A stretch of DNA of 64,000 bases, from IMG/VR virus record IMGVR_UViG_3300026549_000080, positions 3,431-67,430 of that record. One strand, written 5' to 3'. Within the stretch, counting starts at the first letter, position 1. Each line of letters opens with the position of its first letter. Position numbers and translations under genes: made by a program. This document shows, one piece after another, positions 51,019 to 60,254 of this stretch. The stretch is from a virus. Lineage: Duplodnaviria > Caudoviricetes. The notes under the pieces were generated by a model. It ran no database searches. It was not told the DNA's origin and saw only the letters and a program-made list of their open reading frames with translations.

Positions 51019-51523
51019 TGGATATGCAAGAAGTGGAAAAGATACTTTTTGTAATATGGCCTTTTTTAATCGAGGTTTAGTATATTATTATTCTACCATT
51101 GATGAAGTTAAAAAATTTGCGAAAATATTAGGTTGGGATGGAAAGAAAGACGAAAAGGGAAGGAAACTATTAAGTGACCTAAAAGATTGTCTTACCGAAT
51201 ATAATGATTTACCTAATAAATATGTACTTGCACAGATTAAGCGAAAACTTTCTATAATTATTGATCCAGATAATTCTATATTTTTAGTGCAGATGAGAGA
51301 ACCAAAAGAAATAAAGCAATGGTGTAAGAACTATAATGCAAAATCGCTTCTCATTAGGCGCCCCGCTATAGAAAAGAAATGGGGAAATCACGCAGATGAT
51401 GGGGTATTAACTAATGAATATGATTATACAATATATAATGATAGCACTATAGAGGATTTAAAAGAAAAAACAATTGATTTTATTGATAAAGTAAGAAAAG
51501 AAGATTGGGAGTCATATATATGA
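50999..51523 (+). CDS. deoxynucleoside-monophosphate-kinase-like P-loop protein
   Basis: MKIICVNGYARSGKDT, LGWDG.KDEKGR.LL; start moved to SD-preceded ATG. Confidence 0.65.
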   Translation: MKIICVNGYARSGKDTFCNMAFFNRGLVYYYSTIDEVKKFAKILGWDGKKDEKGRKLLSDLKDCLTEYNDLPNKYVLAQIKRKLSIIIDPDNSIFLVQMREPKEIKQWCKNYNAKSLLIRRPAIEKKWGNHADDGVLTNEYDYTIYNDSTIEDLKEKTIDFIDKVRKEDWESYI

Positions 51524-52662
51524 GAAATTATATAGATGGAATTAATTTTTGGGAACTTGAGGCAATGCGCTATTATGCTCCGCCAAAGAGTTGGGACGCA
51601 GATAAAATAAAAGATACTACAACTTCACGTATTTTTAGTGGAGACTGGTATGGTGCCAGAAAACGTGATGGTGCTTTTTATAAATTTATTAAAGACGAAG
51701 ATGGAAATATGTCTTTGATTGGGCGCAGTAAAAGTAAGTCGGGTGATTATTTAGATAAGTATGATTGGGTTCCTCACCTACACCCATTCTTTGAAAGCCT
51801 TCCCAATGGAACTTGCTTACTTGGGGAGCTTTATCTTCCGCGTAATGAACAGGCGCGTACTACAACATCAATAATGAATTGCCTTCAGCCTAAAGCGGTT
51901 AGTCGTCAAGAAAAAGAAGAAAATAAACTTCATTATTATATATTTGATATACTCGCAGATGAAGGTAGGTCACTTATAAATATGAAAGCAATTAATCGGT
52001 TTCTTTTACTTAATTCATATTTAATTGCTTATGGAGAAAATTATAACCACTGGGCGCAATACAAGTCTGGACAGGAACTTTGGAATATGTTGCAGGAAAT
52101 TCTTGCAGAAGGCGGCGAGGGTGTGGTTATTACTCGTGAAGATGCACCATATCAACCTGGCAAAAGACCATCTAAAGATTGTCTTAAAGTTAAAAAAGAA
52201 CTCCAAGATACAATTGATTGTGTTATTATGGGCGCAGTAGCTCCAACCAAAACCTATACAGGTAAAGAAACTGAATCATGGACTTATTGGTTTGACGATC
52301 AAAACAATAAAAAAATAACCGCTGATGAATATCTCGCTAAATATCACACAAATATCTATGCAGCCTATGTCGATGGCGCGCCAGTGATACCAGTAACTAA
52401 AAACTGGTTTTATGGATGGGCTGGTTCATGGCAAATCGGCGCCTACAAAGATGGAAAGTTGATTCCTATCGGTAAACTCAGCGGTCTTACTGACGAAATG
52501 AAAGAGAATTGGAAAAGTTATACAAATAAGATTGCAGAAGTCAGCTGTATGGAAATAATGGAGAATGACGATGGATCAAAAGGACTTAGGCATCCGAAGT
52601 TAATCTCAGTAAGAGAGGACATAGACCCTAAAGACTGCACTTGGGAGAAAATTTTTGGATAA
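51520..52662 (+). CDS. lig: ATP-dependent DNA ligase
   Basis: KxDG (RKRDG), LGELY, IFDIL, EGVV, KVKK, C-terminal LRHP...REDI. Confidence 0.85.
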   Translation: MRNYIDGINFWELEAMRYYAPPKSWDADKIKDTTTSRIFSGDWYGARKRDGAFYKFIKDEDGNMSLIGRSKSKSGDYLDKYDWVPHLHPFFESLPNGTCLLGELYLPRNEQARTTTSIMNCLQPKAVSRQEKEENKLHYYIFDILADEGRSLINMKAINRFLLLNSYLIAYGENYNHWAQYKSGQELWNMLQEILAEGGEGVVITREDAPYQPGKRPSKDCLKVKKELQDTIDCVIMGAVAPTKTYTGKETESWTYWFDDQNNKKITADEYLAKYHTNIYAAYVDGAPVIPVTKNWFYGWAGSWQIGAYKDGKLIPIGKLSGLTDEMKENWKSYTNKIAEVSCMEIMENDDGSKGLRHPKLISVREDIDPKDCTWEKIFG

Positions 52663-52679
52663 AAATTGATTCTGAAAAT

Positions 52680-52708
52680 TTGAAAAGTTTTTAAAATTTA
52701 ACTATAAT
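52680..52708 (+). promoter_or_regulatory. sigma70/sigmaA promoter driving the ribozyme/large-RNA locus
   Basis: TTGAAA-AGTTTTTAAAATTTAAC(17)-TATAAT. Confidence 0.75.
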
Positions 52709-52783
52709 AAATATATAAGATAAAGAAACGAAGGGCGACGGTTTCTTGTTTTCCTTTCTACCGTCGCCCGCATCGGATGATGT

Positions 52784-52838
52784 GGCATCAATTAAGACTA
52801 CCTCCTCGTGGTGATGCTGGATAACGCTAAATGTCTTT
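52784..52838 (+). ncRNA. minimal HDV-like (theta-type) self-cleaving ribozyme A
   Basis: P1 GGCATC/GATGCT (G1.U), P2 AAGAC/GTCTT, P3 ACC/GGT, L3 TCCTCGT, P1.1 CC/GG, J4/2 GCTAAA. Confidence 0.8.
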
Positions 52839-52839
52839 G

Positions 52840-53450
52840 GTTAAATTGAATATAAGAACTCAGTGTAGAATTACTAAACCAGTAAGCTGAGGCGCAATGG
52901 AATGAATAGGTCGGGTCAACGAAACAGGGATACTTGTGGATAGGCGCCGTAATAAATAAGGTGACTTATTTATTTAAGTGGGTGGAACCCCAAACCTAAG
53001 TTGTGGCGCTTCTGATTATTGCAAGTAAAAGCAGAGTGTGGGTCGGGTCATAATAGAAGCAATTGTGAATAGCTTTTGCTGAATCAAAGTTAGGCATAAG
53101 ACGTGGAACTCTATGCAACCCTTTGAAATTCCAATAAGACTTTTGCCGTGAAGCAGAGAAATCTGTGTATAAGGCCTGCATGTCGCGTACGAGTAGCTCA
53201 AGGCATGACTTTTAATACAAGAAAAGTGTTTTCTTTTGATAAAGAAAGAAAGAAATTTTATGACCGTAAGGTGGGTGAAAGTTAGAAGTAATCAATCTTC
53301 TACGAGATATAGGACGTAAGTCTGTTGAAAGGTGTAAACCCTTTTGGGGTATGTGAGGTTAAGGTCGCTCCTTAGTCTGCGGACATATCTCCTCGGTGGC
53401 TGAATATACTTGAAAATAGTTAGGGGTAAGGTGAAAATCTCTTTTATTTA
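52840..53450 (+). ncRNA. large structured ncRNA, GOLLD-like
   Basis: ~600 nt without a credible ORF, GC-enriched, many hairpins (AATAAATAAG/CTTATTTATT, TAGAAG/CTTCTA, GAGATAT/ATATCTC); the 3' part resembles GOLLD from memory and was not model-tested. Confidence 0.6.
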
Positions 53451-53490
53451 ATTTAATTTTAAAGGCTTGGGGAAGTTCCCCTTGCCATAT

Positions 53491-53555
53491 GGCGTCATGG
53501 GGTTGCCTTCTCGCGGCGGCGCTGAATAGGGTAAGACACCTGAACTAAAACCTTA
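53491..53555 (+). ncRNA. HDV-like self-cleaving ribozyme B
   Basis: P1 GGCGTC/GGCGCT, P2 TGGGGTT/AACCTTA, P3 GCC/GGC, L3 TTCTCGC, P4 TAGG/CCTG, J4/2 ACTAA. Confidence 0.78.
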
Positions 53556-53587
53556 ATAGTTTATATTAAAAAATAGGAGTGTGCGAA

Positions 53588-53857
53588 ATGATTATTTCAA
53601 GTGAGCTAACGGGTAAACAGTATAAAACAGTTCAAGATTGTCTTAGTGATGAAAAACTTTTTAAGAAACAGTTAGAAGAAGAAAAGAAAGCAGAAGAAAA
53701 ACGTAAGAAAGAATTAGAGAAAGCTTATAATGAGGCCGTTATAGCATGTAATAAATATTTAGAACTTTGTGGTGTAAAGACAGGCGTTAAAAAAGGTGAA
53801 GATGAAGATAAATATGACCTTCTTGATAAGTGGGTTGAAATAACATTTGGTATTTAA
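53588..53857 (+). CDS. hypothetical protein
   Basis: ~89 aa; start moved to ATG with AGGAG SD. Confidence 0.6.
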   Translation: MIISSELTGKQYKTVQDCLSDEKLFKKQLEEEKKAEEKRKKELEKAYNEAVIACNKYLELCGVKTGVKKGEDEDKYDLLDKWVEITFGI

Positions 53858-55220: not shown

Positions 55221-55307
55221 GCGGTTGTGTCGGAATTGGCAGACGACTCGGACTTAAAATCCGATGCTCCTGTGAGCGTGTGGGTTCAAATCCCACCAGC
55301 CGCACCA
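55221..55307 (+). tRNA. trnL: tRNA-Leu(UAA)
   Basis: Cloverleaf, long variable arm, loop CTTAAAA, encoded CCA. Confidence 0.93.
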
Positions 55308-59770: not shown

Positions 59771-59909
59771 AAAAATTTGCAATATTTTTAAAATATTGAT
59801 ATAATATATATAGAAAGTGAGAGAGAAGTTCCGCAATCGGCGAGGTTTATTACACCGTACTATGACGGGAAACGCACCAAAGAGTAGTTAAATATCATAG
59901 TATTGACGA

Positions 59910-59982
59910 CGCAGGATGATGCAGTGGTCAGCAGCGGATGCTCATAACTTCCGAGTCGGTGGTTCGAATCCACCTCCTGCAA
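59910..59982 (+). tRNA. trnM: tRNA-Met(CAU), initiator-like acceptor, no encoded CCA
   Basis: C1:A72 mismatch, G2-C71, C3-G70, loop CTCATAA, TTCGAAT T-loop; A73 abuts ribozyme. Confidence 0.82.
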
Positions 59983-60039
59983 GAGATACGATAGTTACTA
60001 CCTCCACGTGGTGTATCTTGGATAATGCTAAAAGTAACT
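59983..60039 (+). ncRNA. tRNA-associated HDV-like theta ribozyme
   Basis: P1 GAGATAC/GTATCTT, P2 AGTTACT/AGTAACT, P3 ACC/GGT, L3 TCCACGT, P1.1 CC/GG, J4/2 GCTAAA; G1 directly after tRNA N73. Confidence 0.88.
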
Positions 60040-60065
60040 TAAGTGATAATATGATAGATAAGTAG

Positions 60066-60132
60066 GCCGCAGTAGCTTAATCGGTAAAGCGTCCTGGAAA
60101 CGGGGAGATGTGGTTCGAGTCCAACGGTGGCT
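60066..60132 (+). ncRNA. degenerate tRNA-like RNA with GAAA tetraloop in place of anticodon loop
   Basis: TAGCTTAATCGGTAAAGC D arm, TCCTG-GAAA-CGGGG, TTCGAGT T-loop; imperfect stems; no CCA. Confidence 0.55.
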
Positions 60133-60254
60133 GAAAGTTTATCTAAGTTATCACGATGGAATGTCGCAGAGTAAACTGCGACCTCGCCGCGAAGGAGAAT
60201 CAGAGCTAAATCAACTTTTGGTAGTAATGTGGTTTAACTACTTATTATACCAAC

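What the first reader, a model, noticed from the sequence alone, without database searches (positions are those of the whole stretch)
52784..52838. HDV-like ribozyme A heads the large RNA and is not tRNA-linked
Seen: the full nested double pseudoknot can be drawn: P1 GGCATC/GATGCT with G1.U, P2 AAGAC/GTCTT, P3 ACC/GGT, L3 TCCTCGT, P1.1 CC/GG, P4 reduced to ATAAC, J4/2 GCTAAA. It shares its core almost letter for letter with the tRNA-linked copy at 59983, while P1 and P2 differ with compensatory changes, which is covariation inside one genome. Its 5' product would be a ~70-nt RNA with a perfect 10-bp stem (GGGCGACGGT 52733-52742 / ACCGTCGCCC 52760-52769). A T-T mismatch at the P2 junction may slow it.
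Basis: partly seen in the sequence, partly recalled or inferred. Interest (0 to 1): 0.7.

Follow-up and report, generated by a model that had tools for sequence, protein, structure and literature searches.

The report
Self-cleaving ribozyme heading phage ROOL RNA
A small self-cutting RNA of the known HDV-like "theta" type sits directly on the front end of a phage-encoded ROOL RNA (a giant RNA that builds nanocages) and most likely trims that RNA out of its transcript, a link between two known RNA families that I could not find in the literature.

Summary
Window 52784-52837 (+) draws as a complete minimal HDV-like double pseudoknot with a G1·U wobble, classic L3, a 2-bp P1.1, a 6-nt L4 and catalytic C52827.

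The "large RNA" is ROOL (Rfam RF03087, 286 bits, 52835-53459). The ribozyme's P2 ends 3 nt before ROOL's closing helix.

- **Detection:** a covariance model built only from other loci finds it at E 2e-9. A descriptor gives 0.02 hits per shuffled window against 3 real ones.
- **Conservation:** in 23 distinct ROOL loci fetched without regard to their upstream sequence, 21 carry an HDV-like ribozyme within 86 nt upstream, 13 of them abutting ROOL. The other two carry a twister-P1 ribozyme instead.
- **Covariation:** 12 of 18 pairs show compensatory changes, P1.1 included.
- **3' side:** a second HDV-like ribozyme (53491-53555) cuts 31 nt after ROOL, as in at least 8 other loci.

Best reading: co-transcriptional self-cleavage removes a conserved leader hairpin and, with the second ribozyme, excises a ~707-nt ROOL with a ribozyme-capped 5'-OH end.

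The link is lineage-specific: 2 of 73 loci in a broader ROOL sample. The ribozyme class is known and the ROOL context appears unreported. This scan has noted ribozyme-excised large phage RNAs on other DNA, but for uncatalogued RNA families. Cleavage itself is untested.

The parts
52680..52708 (+). Sigma-70-type promoter-like site (11 of 12 consensus positions, 17-nt spacer); presumed start of the leader-ribozyme-ROOL transcript near 52715
   Evidence: A -10 box at a similar distance precedes the leader hairpin in most related loci where that flank is held. The start site is not mapped.
52733..52769 (+). Leader hairpin: 10-bp G+C-rich stem and a 17-nt loop whose 3' half is a conserved pyrimidine run. 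It would be the core of the ~69-nt 5' cleavage product.
   Evidence: Fold -23.9 kcal/mol, z -3.1. The stem covaries and the loop motif is conserved in 18 of the 23 related loci, and a self-cleaving ribozyme always follows.
52784..52837 (+). Ribozyme A, a minimal HDV-like (theta-type) self-cleaving ribozyme. Predicted cut between U52783 and G52784; catalytic C52827; stays attached to the 5' end of ROOL.
52835..53459 (+). ROOL RNA (Rfam RF03087), full-length match; closing helix starts at 52841
   Evidence: 286.3 bits against a gathering score of 99.1, E 1.3e-64
53464..53486 (+). Short 3' trailer hairpin after ROOL, followed by four bases before the second cleavage site
   Evidence: Fold -15 kcal/mol, z -3.1. 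Similar C-rich trailers ending in an AU-rich run precede the 3' ribozymes of other loci.
53491..53555 (+). Ribozyme B, an HDV-like ribozyme with a short P4. Predicted cut between U53490 and G53491; separates ROOL from the downstream small ORF (Shine-Dalgarno-like AGGAG at about 53576, 92-aa frame 53579-53857).
   Evidence: Descriptor hit; model R1 E 4.3e-5; sequence; ORF. Homologous 3' ribozymes lie after ROOL in L009, L018, L033, L019, L002, L024, L026, L028, L087 and L091.
59983..60039 (+). Comparator: tRNA-linked theta ribozyme of the same phage, starting one base after tRNA-Met(CAU)

Best explanation
Ribozyme A is a working minimal HDV-like (theta-type) self-cleaving ribozyme.

A phage promoter near 52680-52708 reads through a conserved leader hairpin, ribozyme A, ROOL, a short 3' hairpin, ribozyme B and a small ORF, in that order. 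As the ribozyme folds during transcription it cuts its own 5' edge, between U52783 and G52784.

This releases a leader RNA of about 69 nt ending in a 2',3'-cyclic phosphate. ROOL is left with a 5'-hydroxyl end buried in the compact double pseudoknot, which remains as a 54-nt appendage 3 nt from ROOL's closing helix. Ribozyme B makes the matching cut 31 nt after ROOL, so a ROOL species of about 707 nt (52784-53490) is excised without host nucleases.

What the sequence analysis shows:
- the motif,
- its covariation,
- its fixed position at the ROOL boundary,
- its replacement by a twister ribozyme in some phages.

What is inferred:
- that cleavage happens in vivo,
- where the transcript starts,
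- that the benefit is defined, protected ends and release from flanking RNA so that the nanocage can assemble.
For: **Motif**
- The motif is complete, with the G1·U wobble, the catalytic C and a classic L3.
- It is the top hit of a covariance model trained only on other loci: 50.8 bits, E 1.9e-9.
- The descriptor background is 0.02 hits per shuffled window.

**Position**
- I fetched 23 distinct ROOL loci with a ROOL-internal pattern, so blind to upstream sequence. All 23 carry a self-cleaving ribozyme within 91 nt upstream of ROOL.
- In 21 it is HDV-like: 13 abut ROOL (gap -11 to +18 nt to the Rfam model start) and 8 have a ~60-nt conserved module in between. In 2 it is a twister only.

**Covariation**
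- On 15 non-window copies, 99.2% of cells are paired and 12 of 18 pairs have changes on both sides, in all four helices. P1.1 changes from C-G to U-A. Slid controls pair at 30-45%.
- On 23 copies, 6 of 11 pairs are compensatory, with 0 of 500 shuffles as high.

**Other support**
- The catalytic C is invariant.
- The base before the cut is U or C in every 5' copy read.
- Class swap: twister-P1 hits at E 1e-10 to 6e-9 sit in the same slot in L009, L022, L029 and L037.
- The ROOL genes are only 64-92% identical to each other (median 70%), and the window's is at most 75% identical to any other. The linkage has therefore survived long divergence.
- A ROOL-linked copy (L033 546-598) is letter-identical to an entry in the published theta-ribozyme list, a family with demonstrated in vitro self-scission (PMC10879173).
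- RNA fused to ROOL's 3' end is displayed outward and does not block cage assembly (PMC12515178). By inference only, since that experiment used the other end, an attached 5' ribozyme next to the same closing helix may be tolerated too.
Against: - No cleavage assay or RNA end mapping exists for this or any ROOL-linked copy.
- The Rfam HDV models score it below threshold: RF02682 gives 19.1 bits against 44, E 0.2.
- P1 is 6 bp, and P2 is only 5-6 bp with a bulge or mismatch.
- Sequences for the covariation counts were first picked by a descriptor that demands pairing, so the 100% paired figure is partly circular. The compensatory changes and the blind choice of loci are not.
- In 8 loci the ribozyme is separated from ROOL by another module with no cut between them, so a clean ROOL 5' end is not always produced.
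- Most ROOL genes in a broader sample have no such ribozyme: 2 of the 73 loci holding at least 450 nt upstream do. It is therefore not required for ROOL function in general.
Confidence: 0.76

Rival explanations
1. The selected function is release of the upstream leader hairpin RNA, by analogy with theta ribozymes that finish the 3' end of an upstream tRNA. ROOL merely lies downstream. The leader, with its conserved pyrimidine loop, would be the functional product, for example a small regulatory or protein-binding RNA.
For: In every locus where the leader hairpin was found, a ribozyme follows it closely, whichever class it is: about 11-14 nt for the HDV-like copies and a comparably short distance for the twister. 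The stem covaries while the loop motif is conserved. In 8 loci this ribozyme does not abut ROOL.
Against: In the loci where a twister-type motif (confirmed by Rfam in L009 and L037) already removes the leader, a second HDV-like ribozyme still sits directly on ROOL. These are L009, L010, L016, L019, L023, L025 and L037. ROOL also has its own 3' ribozyme in at least 9 loci. ROOL-proximal cuts are therefore selected independently. The two roles are not exclusive, and in the window one ribozyme serves both.
Confidence: 0.12
2. Excision followed by ligation. The two ribozymes leave a 5'-OH and a 2',3'-cyclic phosphate on one molecule, which a host RtcB-type ligase joins into circular ROOL. This would be a natural counterpart of engineered ribozyme-flanked circular RNAs.
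For: Both ends have the chemistry expected for RtcB substrates (established HDV-family chemistry). ROOL's closing helix brings its two ends together (structure line).
Against: No RtcB, RNA ligase, 2H phosphoesterase or CCA-adding enzyme was found in the held 67-kb virus record, which is 57% complete. The adjacent ligase gene matches ATP-dependent DNA ligase models only. G1 is paired inside the ribozyme core and is not a free end. A circle would also rebuild an intact substrate for ribozyme A, which needs no upstream sequence and would recut it (inference from HDV-family properties).
Confidence: 0.05
3. A decayed or fortuitous motif with no activity: a relic copy of the tRNA-linked theta ribozyme.
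For: Short P1 and imperfect P2; sub-threshold Rfam score; untested biochemically.
Against: Conservation at the same slot across ROOL genes about 70% identical, compensatory changes in all four helices, an invariant catalytic C, and class replacement by twister. A relic would not keep these.
Confidence: 0.04

Closest known systems
Theta ribozymes: minimal HDV-like ribozymes of gut phages (Kienbeck et al. 2024, PMC10879173)
   Same: Same fold and the same domain layout as the published descriptor: 6-7 bp P1, 3-bp P3, L3 beginning with U, 2-bp P1.1, 5-8 nt L4 in place of P4, and J4/2 of the form C-N-A-A. Also found in tailed-phage contigs that carry tRNA arrays. At least one ROOL-linked homologue is letter-identical to an entry in their metagenomic list. 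A classic tRNA-linked copy lies in the same window.
   Different: Not at a tRNA 3' end. It sits on the 5' end of ROOL and stays attached to the functional downstream RNA, instead of lying in a discarded trailer. That paper left its 526 non-tRNA hits as 'unknown biological functions' and does not mention ROOL.
Self-cleaving ribozymes flanking genes in prophage transcripts (Perreault et al. 2011, PMC3088659)
   Same: Several ribozymes along one phage transcript, proposed to cut it into units. Classes are interchangeable at a slot.
   Different: That study found hammerheads flanking protein genes. Here HDV-like and twister ribozymes bracket a catalogued giant non-coding RNA.
HDV-like ribozyme of Faecalibacterium prausnitzii (Rfam RF02682) and drz-Agam-1 (RF01787)
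   Same: These are the best Rfam matches. The alignment starts exactly at G52784 and shares P1, P3 and L3.
   Different: Those models carry a full P4. The score is far below their gathering thresholds (19.1 against 44 bits; 17.1 against 37).
Twister-P1 ribozyme (Rfam RF03160)
   Same: Occupies the same slot, after the leader hairpin or directly before ROOL, in sister loci. Like HDV-like ribozymes, it cuts near its own 5' end (my own knowledge of the class).
   Different: An unrelated fold; none is present in this window.

Membership tests
HDV-like / theta minimal ribozymes | Nested double pseudoknot P1, P1.1, P2, P3 (P4 optional) | tested here: met
   All four helices can be drawn at 52784-52837. 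Homologues keep them, with compensatory changes in each helix.
HDV-like / theta minimal ribozymes | G1 at the cleavage site forming a G·U wobble that closes P1 | tested here: met
   G52784·U52818; G·U in 23 of 23 aligned copies
HDV-like / theta minimal ribozymes | Catalytic cytosine at the first position of J4/2 | tested here: met
   C52827; invariant in the 15-sequence alignment
HDV-like / theta minimal ribozymes | Fits the published theta descriptor layout | tested here: inconclusive
   The window copy parses into the published domain layout seen in the paper's data files. The homologue L033 546-598 is identical to a listed theta sequence. The descriptor file itself is an image I could not run, and the window's imperfect P2 might or might not pass it.
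HDV-like / theta minimal ribozymes | Cleavage site within 5 nt of a tRNA 3' end (the 'tRNA-associated' subgroup) | tested here: not met
   The nearest tRNA is at 55221, and none lies upstream. The motif-defined family also contains non-tRNA members.
HDV-like / theta minimal ribozymes | Site-specific self-scission in vitro | not testable with these tools
   Needs a transcription and cleavage assay
Rfam HDV-type families (RF02682, RF01787, RF00094) | Score at or above the gathering threshold | tested here: not met
   Best is 19.1 bits against 44. These models require a long P4.
ROOL RNA (RF03087), for the adjoining large RNA | Full-length covariance-model match above the gathering score | tested here: met
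   286.3 bits against 99.1, model positions 1-574

The most novel reading that the evidence does not exclude
In one lineage of uncultured phages, the nanocage-forming ROOL RNA is made by ribozyme-driven excision. An HDV-like (or twister) ribozyme caps its 5' end and a second HDV-like ribozyme trims its 3' end. Native ROOL would then carry a 5'-OH ribozyme appendage and a cyclic-phosphate 3' hairpin, and would be co-produced with a conserved leader hairpin RNA. This would give a function to some of the 'orphan' non-tRNA theta ribozymes, and a first handle on ROOL biogenesis.
Probability: 0.6. Interest if true: 0.7.

Novelty: new variant of a known kind. Interest (0 to 1): 0.62.

Why it matters
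ROOL is one of the few natural RNAs known to form a closed nanocage, and both its function and its biogenesis are unknown. The structural work I could read used the bare core: the env-120 construct pairs nt 1 with nt 659 and has no native flanks.

Showing that a whole phage lineage delivers ROOL between self-cleaving ribozymes would have three consequences:
- It defines the likely native ends and appendages of the RNA.
- It gives a purpose to some of the theta ribozymes that the discovery paper left unexplained.
- It offers a simple testable model: cut sites at 52783/52784 and 53490/53491.

It also identifies co-transcribed partners, namely the leader hairpin and a conserved ~60-nt module. These may be clues to what the cage does.

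Tried and rejected
- **Rfam at gathering thresholds:** finds ROOL and tRNAs but no ribozyme in the window. At permissive E-values the HDV models are only suggestive.
- **BLAST against cultured-phage records:** no match for the locus.
- **First exact-pattern scans of viral contigs:** too strict, giving 1-3 hits.
- **Upstream ligase gene (51505-52662):** considered as an RNA-repair partner. It matches ATP-dependent DNA ligase models only, well below their cut-offs. It is not the RNA ligase family that the theta paper found enriched.
- **RNA end-healing enzymes:** RtcB, CCA-adding enzyme, RNA ligase and 2H phosphoesterase are all absent from the held, incomplete virus record.
- **Generality across ROOL:** rejected. 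In 80 ROOL loci fetched with a broad ROOL-core pattern, only L087 and L091 have the 5' ribozyme. These detectors are crude.
- **The conserved ~60-nt module next to ROOL in other loci:** RNAalifold on a MAFFT alignment gave no convincing structure, and permissive Rfam scans of loci carrying the module returned no match for it.
- **The window's exact ribozyme sequence:** not found in the parts of the theta paper's data files that are held; these are truncated.
- **PHROGs scan of neighbouring ORFs:** failed on a frame error and was not repeated, as it does not bear on the ribozyme.

Full report
**1. The observation**

I read 52500-53100 and 59800-60200.

| Element | Coordinates |
|---|---|
| P1 | 52784-52789 with 52813-52818 (opens with G52784·U52818) |
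| P2 | 52794-52798 with 52833-52837 |
| P3 | 52800-52802 with 52810-52812 |
| L3 | 52803-52809 (7 nt) |
| P1.1 | C52804/C52805 with G52820/G52819 |
| Leader stem | 52733-52742 with 52760-52769 (perfect 10 bp) |

- The MFE fold, which cannot model pseudoknots, returns the nested P1 and P3.
- The copy at 59983-60039 begins one base after tRNA-Met 59910-59982. It shares the P3/L3/P1.1/L4/J4/2 core almost exactly, while P1 and P2 differ with pairing kept.

**2. What surrounds it**

- The window is part of a 67-kb IMG/VR virus record estimated 57% complete.
- The "large RNA" is ROOL: RF03087, 286.3 bits against a gathering score of 99.1, 52835-53459. It is not GOLLD.
- ROOL's closing helix starts at 52841, so the ribozyme's P2 ends 3 nt before it.
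- Upstream lies the best promoter-like site of the region, 52680-52708, with 11 of 12 consensus positions. Then come the leader hairpin (-23.9 kcal/mol, z -3.1) and 14 nt of linker.
- Downstream of ROOL lie a short hairpin (53464-53486) and four bases.
- A second HDV-like ribozyme follows at 53491-53555, and then a small ORF with a Shine-Dalgarno-like AGGAG.
- No terminator-like site separates these parts.

**3. Is it more than chance?**

- A descriptor I wrote requires P3, an L3 pattern, P1 with G1, P1.1, and a P2 abutting P3 with a C in J4/2. It finds three sites in the 64-kb window, all on the + strand and all at RNA gene boundaries.
- 100 dinucleotide-preserving shuffles give a mean of 0.02 sites.
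- A covariance model (R1) built from 15 copies in other loci, with no window sequence, gives:

| Window site | Bits | E-value |
|---|---|---|
| 52784-52837 (full length, top hit) | 50.8 | 1.9e-9 |
| 53491 | 31.3 | 4.3e-5 |
| 59985 | 20.6 | 0.01 |

- Rfam's own HDV families are only suggestive. RF02682 scores 19.1 bits, E 0.2, with the alignment starting exactly at 52784. These models expect a long P4.

**4. Comparative evidence**

I fetched ROOL loci with a pattern taken from inside ROOL's 5' domain, so the choice was blind to what lies upstream. One hit, L036, was a chance match in coding DNA. After removing duplicates there are 23 distinct ROOL loci, with coordinates confirmed by Rfam.

Upstream of ROOL:

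| Arrangement | Loci |
|---|---|
| HDV-like ribozyme within 86 nt upstream | 21 |
| abutting the Rfam model start (gap -11 to +18 nt) | 13 of the 21 (window, L009, L010, L015, L016, L017, L018, L019, L023, L025, L031, L033, L037) |
| conserved ~60-nt module between ribozyme and ROOL | 8 of the 21 |
| twister ribozyme only | 2 (L011, L014) |

- The twister-P1 model hits at E 1e-10 to 6e-9. Hits are in L029 (the same sequence as L011, ending 15 nt before ROOL), L022 (the same as L014), L009 and L037. These scores are below Rfam's gathering threshold of 67.2 bits but far from chance.
- Seven loci have both a twister-type motif after the leader hairpin and an HDV-like ribozyme directly on ROOL. 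Only L009 and L037 are confirmed by Rfam; the rest rest on motif similarity.
- The ROOL genes themselves are 64-92% identical (median 70%), and the window's is at most 75% identical to any other.
- The different arrangements are scattered over a quick tree of the ROOL genes. The ribozyme-ROOL link has therefore been kept through long divergence and several rearrangements.

**5. Covariation**

- On 23 copies aligned from G1 to P1.1, all cells pair and 6 of 11 pairs have changes on both sides. P1 positions 2, 3, 4 and 5 change, P3 changes A-U/G-C, and P1.1 changes C-G/U-A in 6 copies. None of 500 shuffles scores as high.
- On 15 complete minimal copies from outside the window, scored with the full double pseudoknot, 99.2% of cells pair. 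12 of 18 pairs are compensatory, including all 7 of P2. Sliding the partners drops pairing to 30-45%.
- **Caveat:** these copies were first picked by a descriptor that requires pairing, so the percentage paired is partly built in. The variety of compensated pairs is not, and neither is the blind choice of loci.
- The innermost P2 pair changes from U-A to C-G in L033. This shows J4/2 is 4 nt, so in the window U52799 pairs with A52831 and U52832 bulges. L009 has the same bulge.
- The catalytic C is invariant.
- The base before the cut is U or C in every 5' copy. From my own knowledge of HDV ribozymes, this is the favoured context.

**6. The 3' side**

- Model R1 finds HDV-like ribozymes after ROOL at these distances from its 3' end:

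| Locus | Distance (nt) |
|---|---|
| L009 | +24 |
| L018 | +26 |
| window | +31 |
| L033 | +43 |
| L019 | +112 |
| L028 | +184 |
| L002, L024, L026 | +197 to +198 |

- L087 and L091 also have them.
- These copies form their own subtype: L3 begins U-U-C and P1.1 is often a single pair.
- ROOL in this lineage is thus commonly bracketed by ribozymes.

**7. Family**

- The data files of the theta-ribozyme paper list sequences split by descriptor domain. The window copy parses into the same layout.
- The ROOL-linked copy in L033/L087 is letter-identical to one listed entry, and L025's differs from another by one base.
- The element therefore belongs to the published, motif-defined theta family. 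In that family four tRNA-linked members were shown to self-cleave in vitro (PMC10879173).
- That paper found 526 non-tRNA hits, left them as "unknown biological functions", and never mentions ROOL or GOLLD.

**8. Mechanism**

- *Established for the family:* cleavage immediately 5' of G1, leaving a 2',3'-cyclic phosphate upstream and a 5'-OH downstream, with no sequence requirement upstream.
- *Shown here:* the motif, its covariation, its position, and its replacement by another ribozyme class.
- *Inferred:* the transcript starts near 52715. Ribozyme A detaches a ~69-nt leader and stays as a 54-nt cap on ROOL. Ribozyme B frees the 3' end, giving a species of about 707 nt.
- An RNA fused to ROOL's 3' end is displayed outward and does not prevent octamer assembly (PMC12515178). 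By inference only, since that experiment used the 3' end, a 5' appendage next to the same closing helix may be tolerated too.
- Why the cut is useful remains inference. The possibilities are independence from host nucleases, removal of flanking RNA that would clash in the cage, and a structured 5' end without a single-stranded tail.

**9. Rivals**

- **Leader release as the main purpose.** This has real support: in the 18 loci where the hairpin was found, a ribozyme always follows it. It does not explain the second ribozyme on ROOL in loci where a twister has already removed the leader, nor the 3' ribozymes. In the window one ribozyme would serve both ends.
- **Circularisation by an RtcB-type ligase.** This is chemically possible, but no such enzyme is in the held record and the neighbouring ligase is DNA-ligase-like. 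G1 is buried, and a circle would be recut by ribozyme A.
- **A dead relic.** This is contradicted by the conservation pattern.

**10. Limits of generality**

- A broad ROOL-core pattern returned 114 viral loci, of which 80 were held.
- Only L087 and L091 carry the 5' ribozyme, out of the 73 loci holding at least 450 nt upstream.
- The linkage is therefore a trait of one lineage, the ROOL subfamily matched by my 5'-domain pattern. It is not a trait of ROOL in general.
- My detectors would miss other ribozyme classes.

**11. Novelty**

- Full-text searches found no paper that connects ROOL with HDV-like, theta or twister ribozymes.
- The ROOL discovery paper, the cryo-EM paper, a 2026 review and the Lactobacillus salivarius study do not mention flanking ribozymes.
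- The cryo-EM construct is the bare core.
- The general idea that phage transcripts are cut by flanking ribozymes dates from 2011 (PMC3088659).
- Earlier notes of this scan report ribozyme-excised large phage RNAs on other DNA, but for uncatalogued RNA families. A sister note on this window already proposed the two-ribozyme bracket.
- The ribozyme is therefore a member of a known class, used in a context that appears to be unreported.

Noticed in passing
window 52733-52769; also L002, L009, L010, L011, L015, L016, L018, L019, L021, L023, L025, L028, L031-L035: The leader hairpin at the start of the ROOL transcript has a strongly covarying G+C-rich stem. Its loop has a conserved 3' half, a pyrimidine run of about 10 nt. 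It always lies 25-50 nt after a -10 box and is always followed by a self-cleaving ribozyme. Function unknown; it could be a released small RNA or a protein or polymerase recognition site. In the window the motif occurs at no other promoter.
   Followed up: partly
L002:4928-4995, L021:3762-3819, L024:3603-3669, L009:4887-4942 and others (not present in the window): A highly conserved ~60-nt module accompanies ROOL in most related loci. It lies either between the ribozyme and ROOL or just before the ROOL-abutting ribozyme. Permissive Rfam scans of several loci carrying it returned no match, and RNAalifold found no clear fold.
   Followed up: partly
L009:4620-4950 and the equivalent stretch in L010 (upstream of 5893): About 330-400 nt of conserved, ORF-free sequence lies between the twister ribozyme and the ROOL-abutting HDV-like ribozyme. 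It could be a second, uncatalogued structured RNA excised by the same ribozymes.
   Followed up: no
window 53491-53555: Ribozyme B is an HDV-like ribozyme of a distinct subtype: L3 begins U-U-C and there is a short P4. It lies 31 nt after ROOL, preceded by a small hairpin and an AU-rich run that recur before the 3' ribozymes of other loci.
   Followed up: partly
window 52770-52783: The 14-nt linker before the cleavage site folds into a small hairpin. Its two arms repeat the sequences of the two P1 strands, so it could compete with P1 or, by pairing with itself, insulate P1. It is not conserved in other loci.
   Followed up: no
L021:8507-8562 and L028:1747-1797: The same phage lineage also carries classic tRNA-linked theta ribozymes. 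G1 lies directly after, or within 1 nt of, the end of a tRNA (8433-8506 in L021; 1799-1870 on the minus strand in L028). One genome therefore uses the ribozyme in both contexts, as the window does.
   Followed up: partly
L002:8738-8925: A group I intron match (RF00028, 54.4 bits against a gathering score of 50) lies inside the tRNA array downstream of ROOL.
   Followed up: no
L009:4553-4619, L022:1862-1921 (-), L029:182-233, L037:2758-2816: These twister-P1 ribozymes score 51-57 bits, E 1e-10 to 6e-9, but fall below Rfam's gathering score of 67.2. Standard annotation would therefore miss them.
   Followed up: partly
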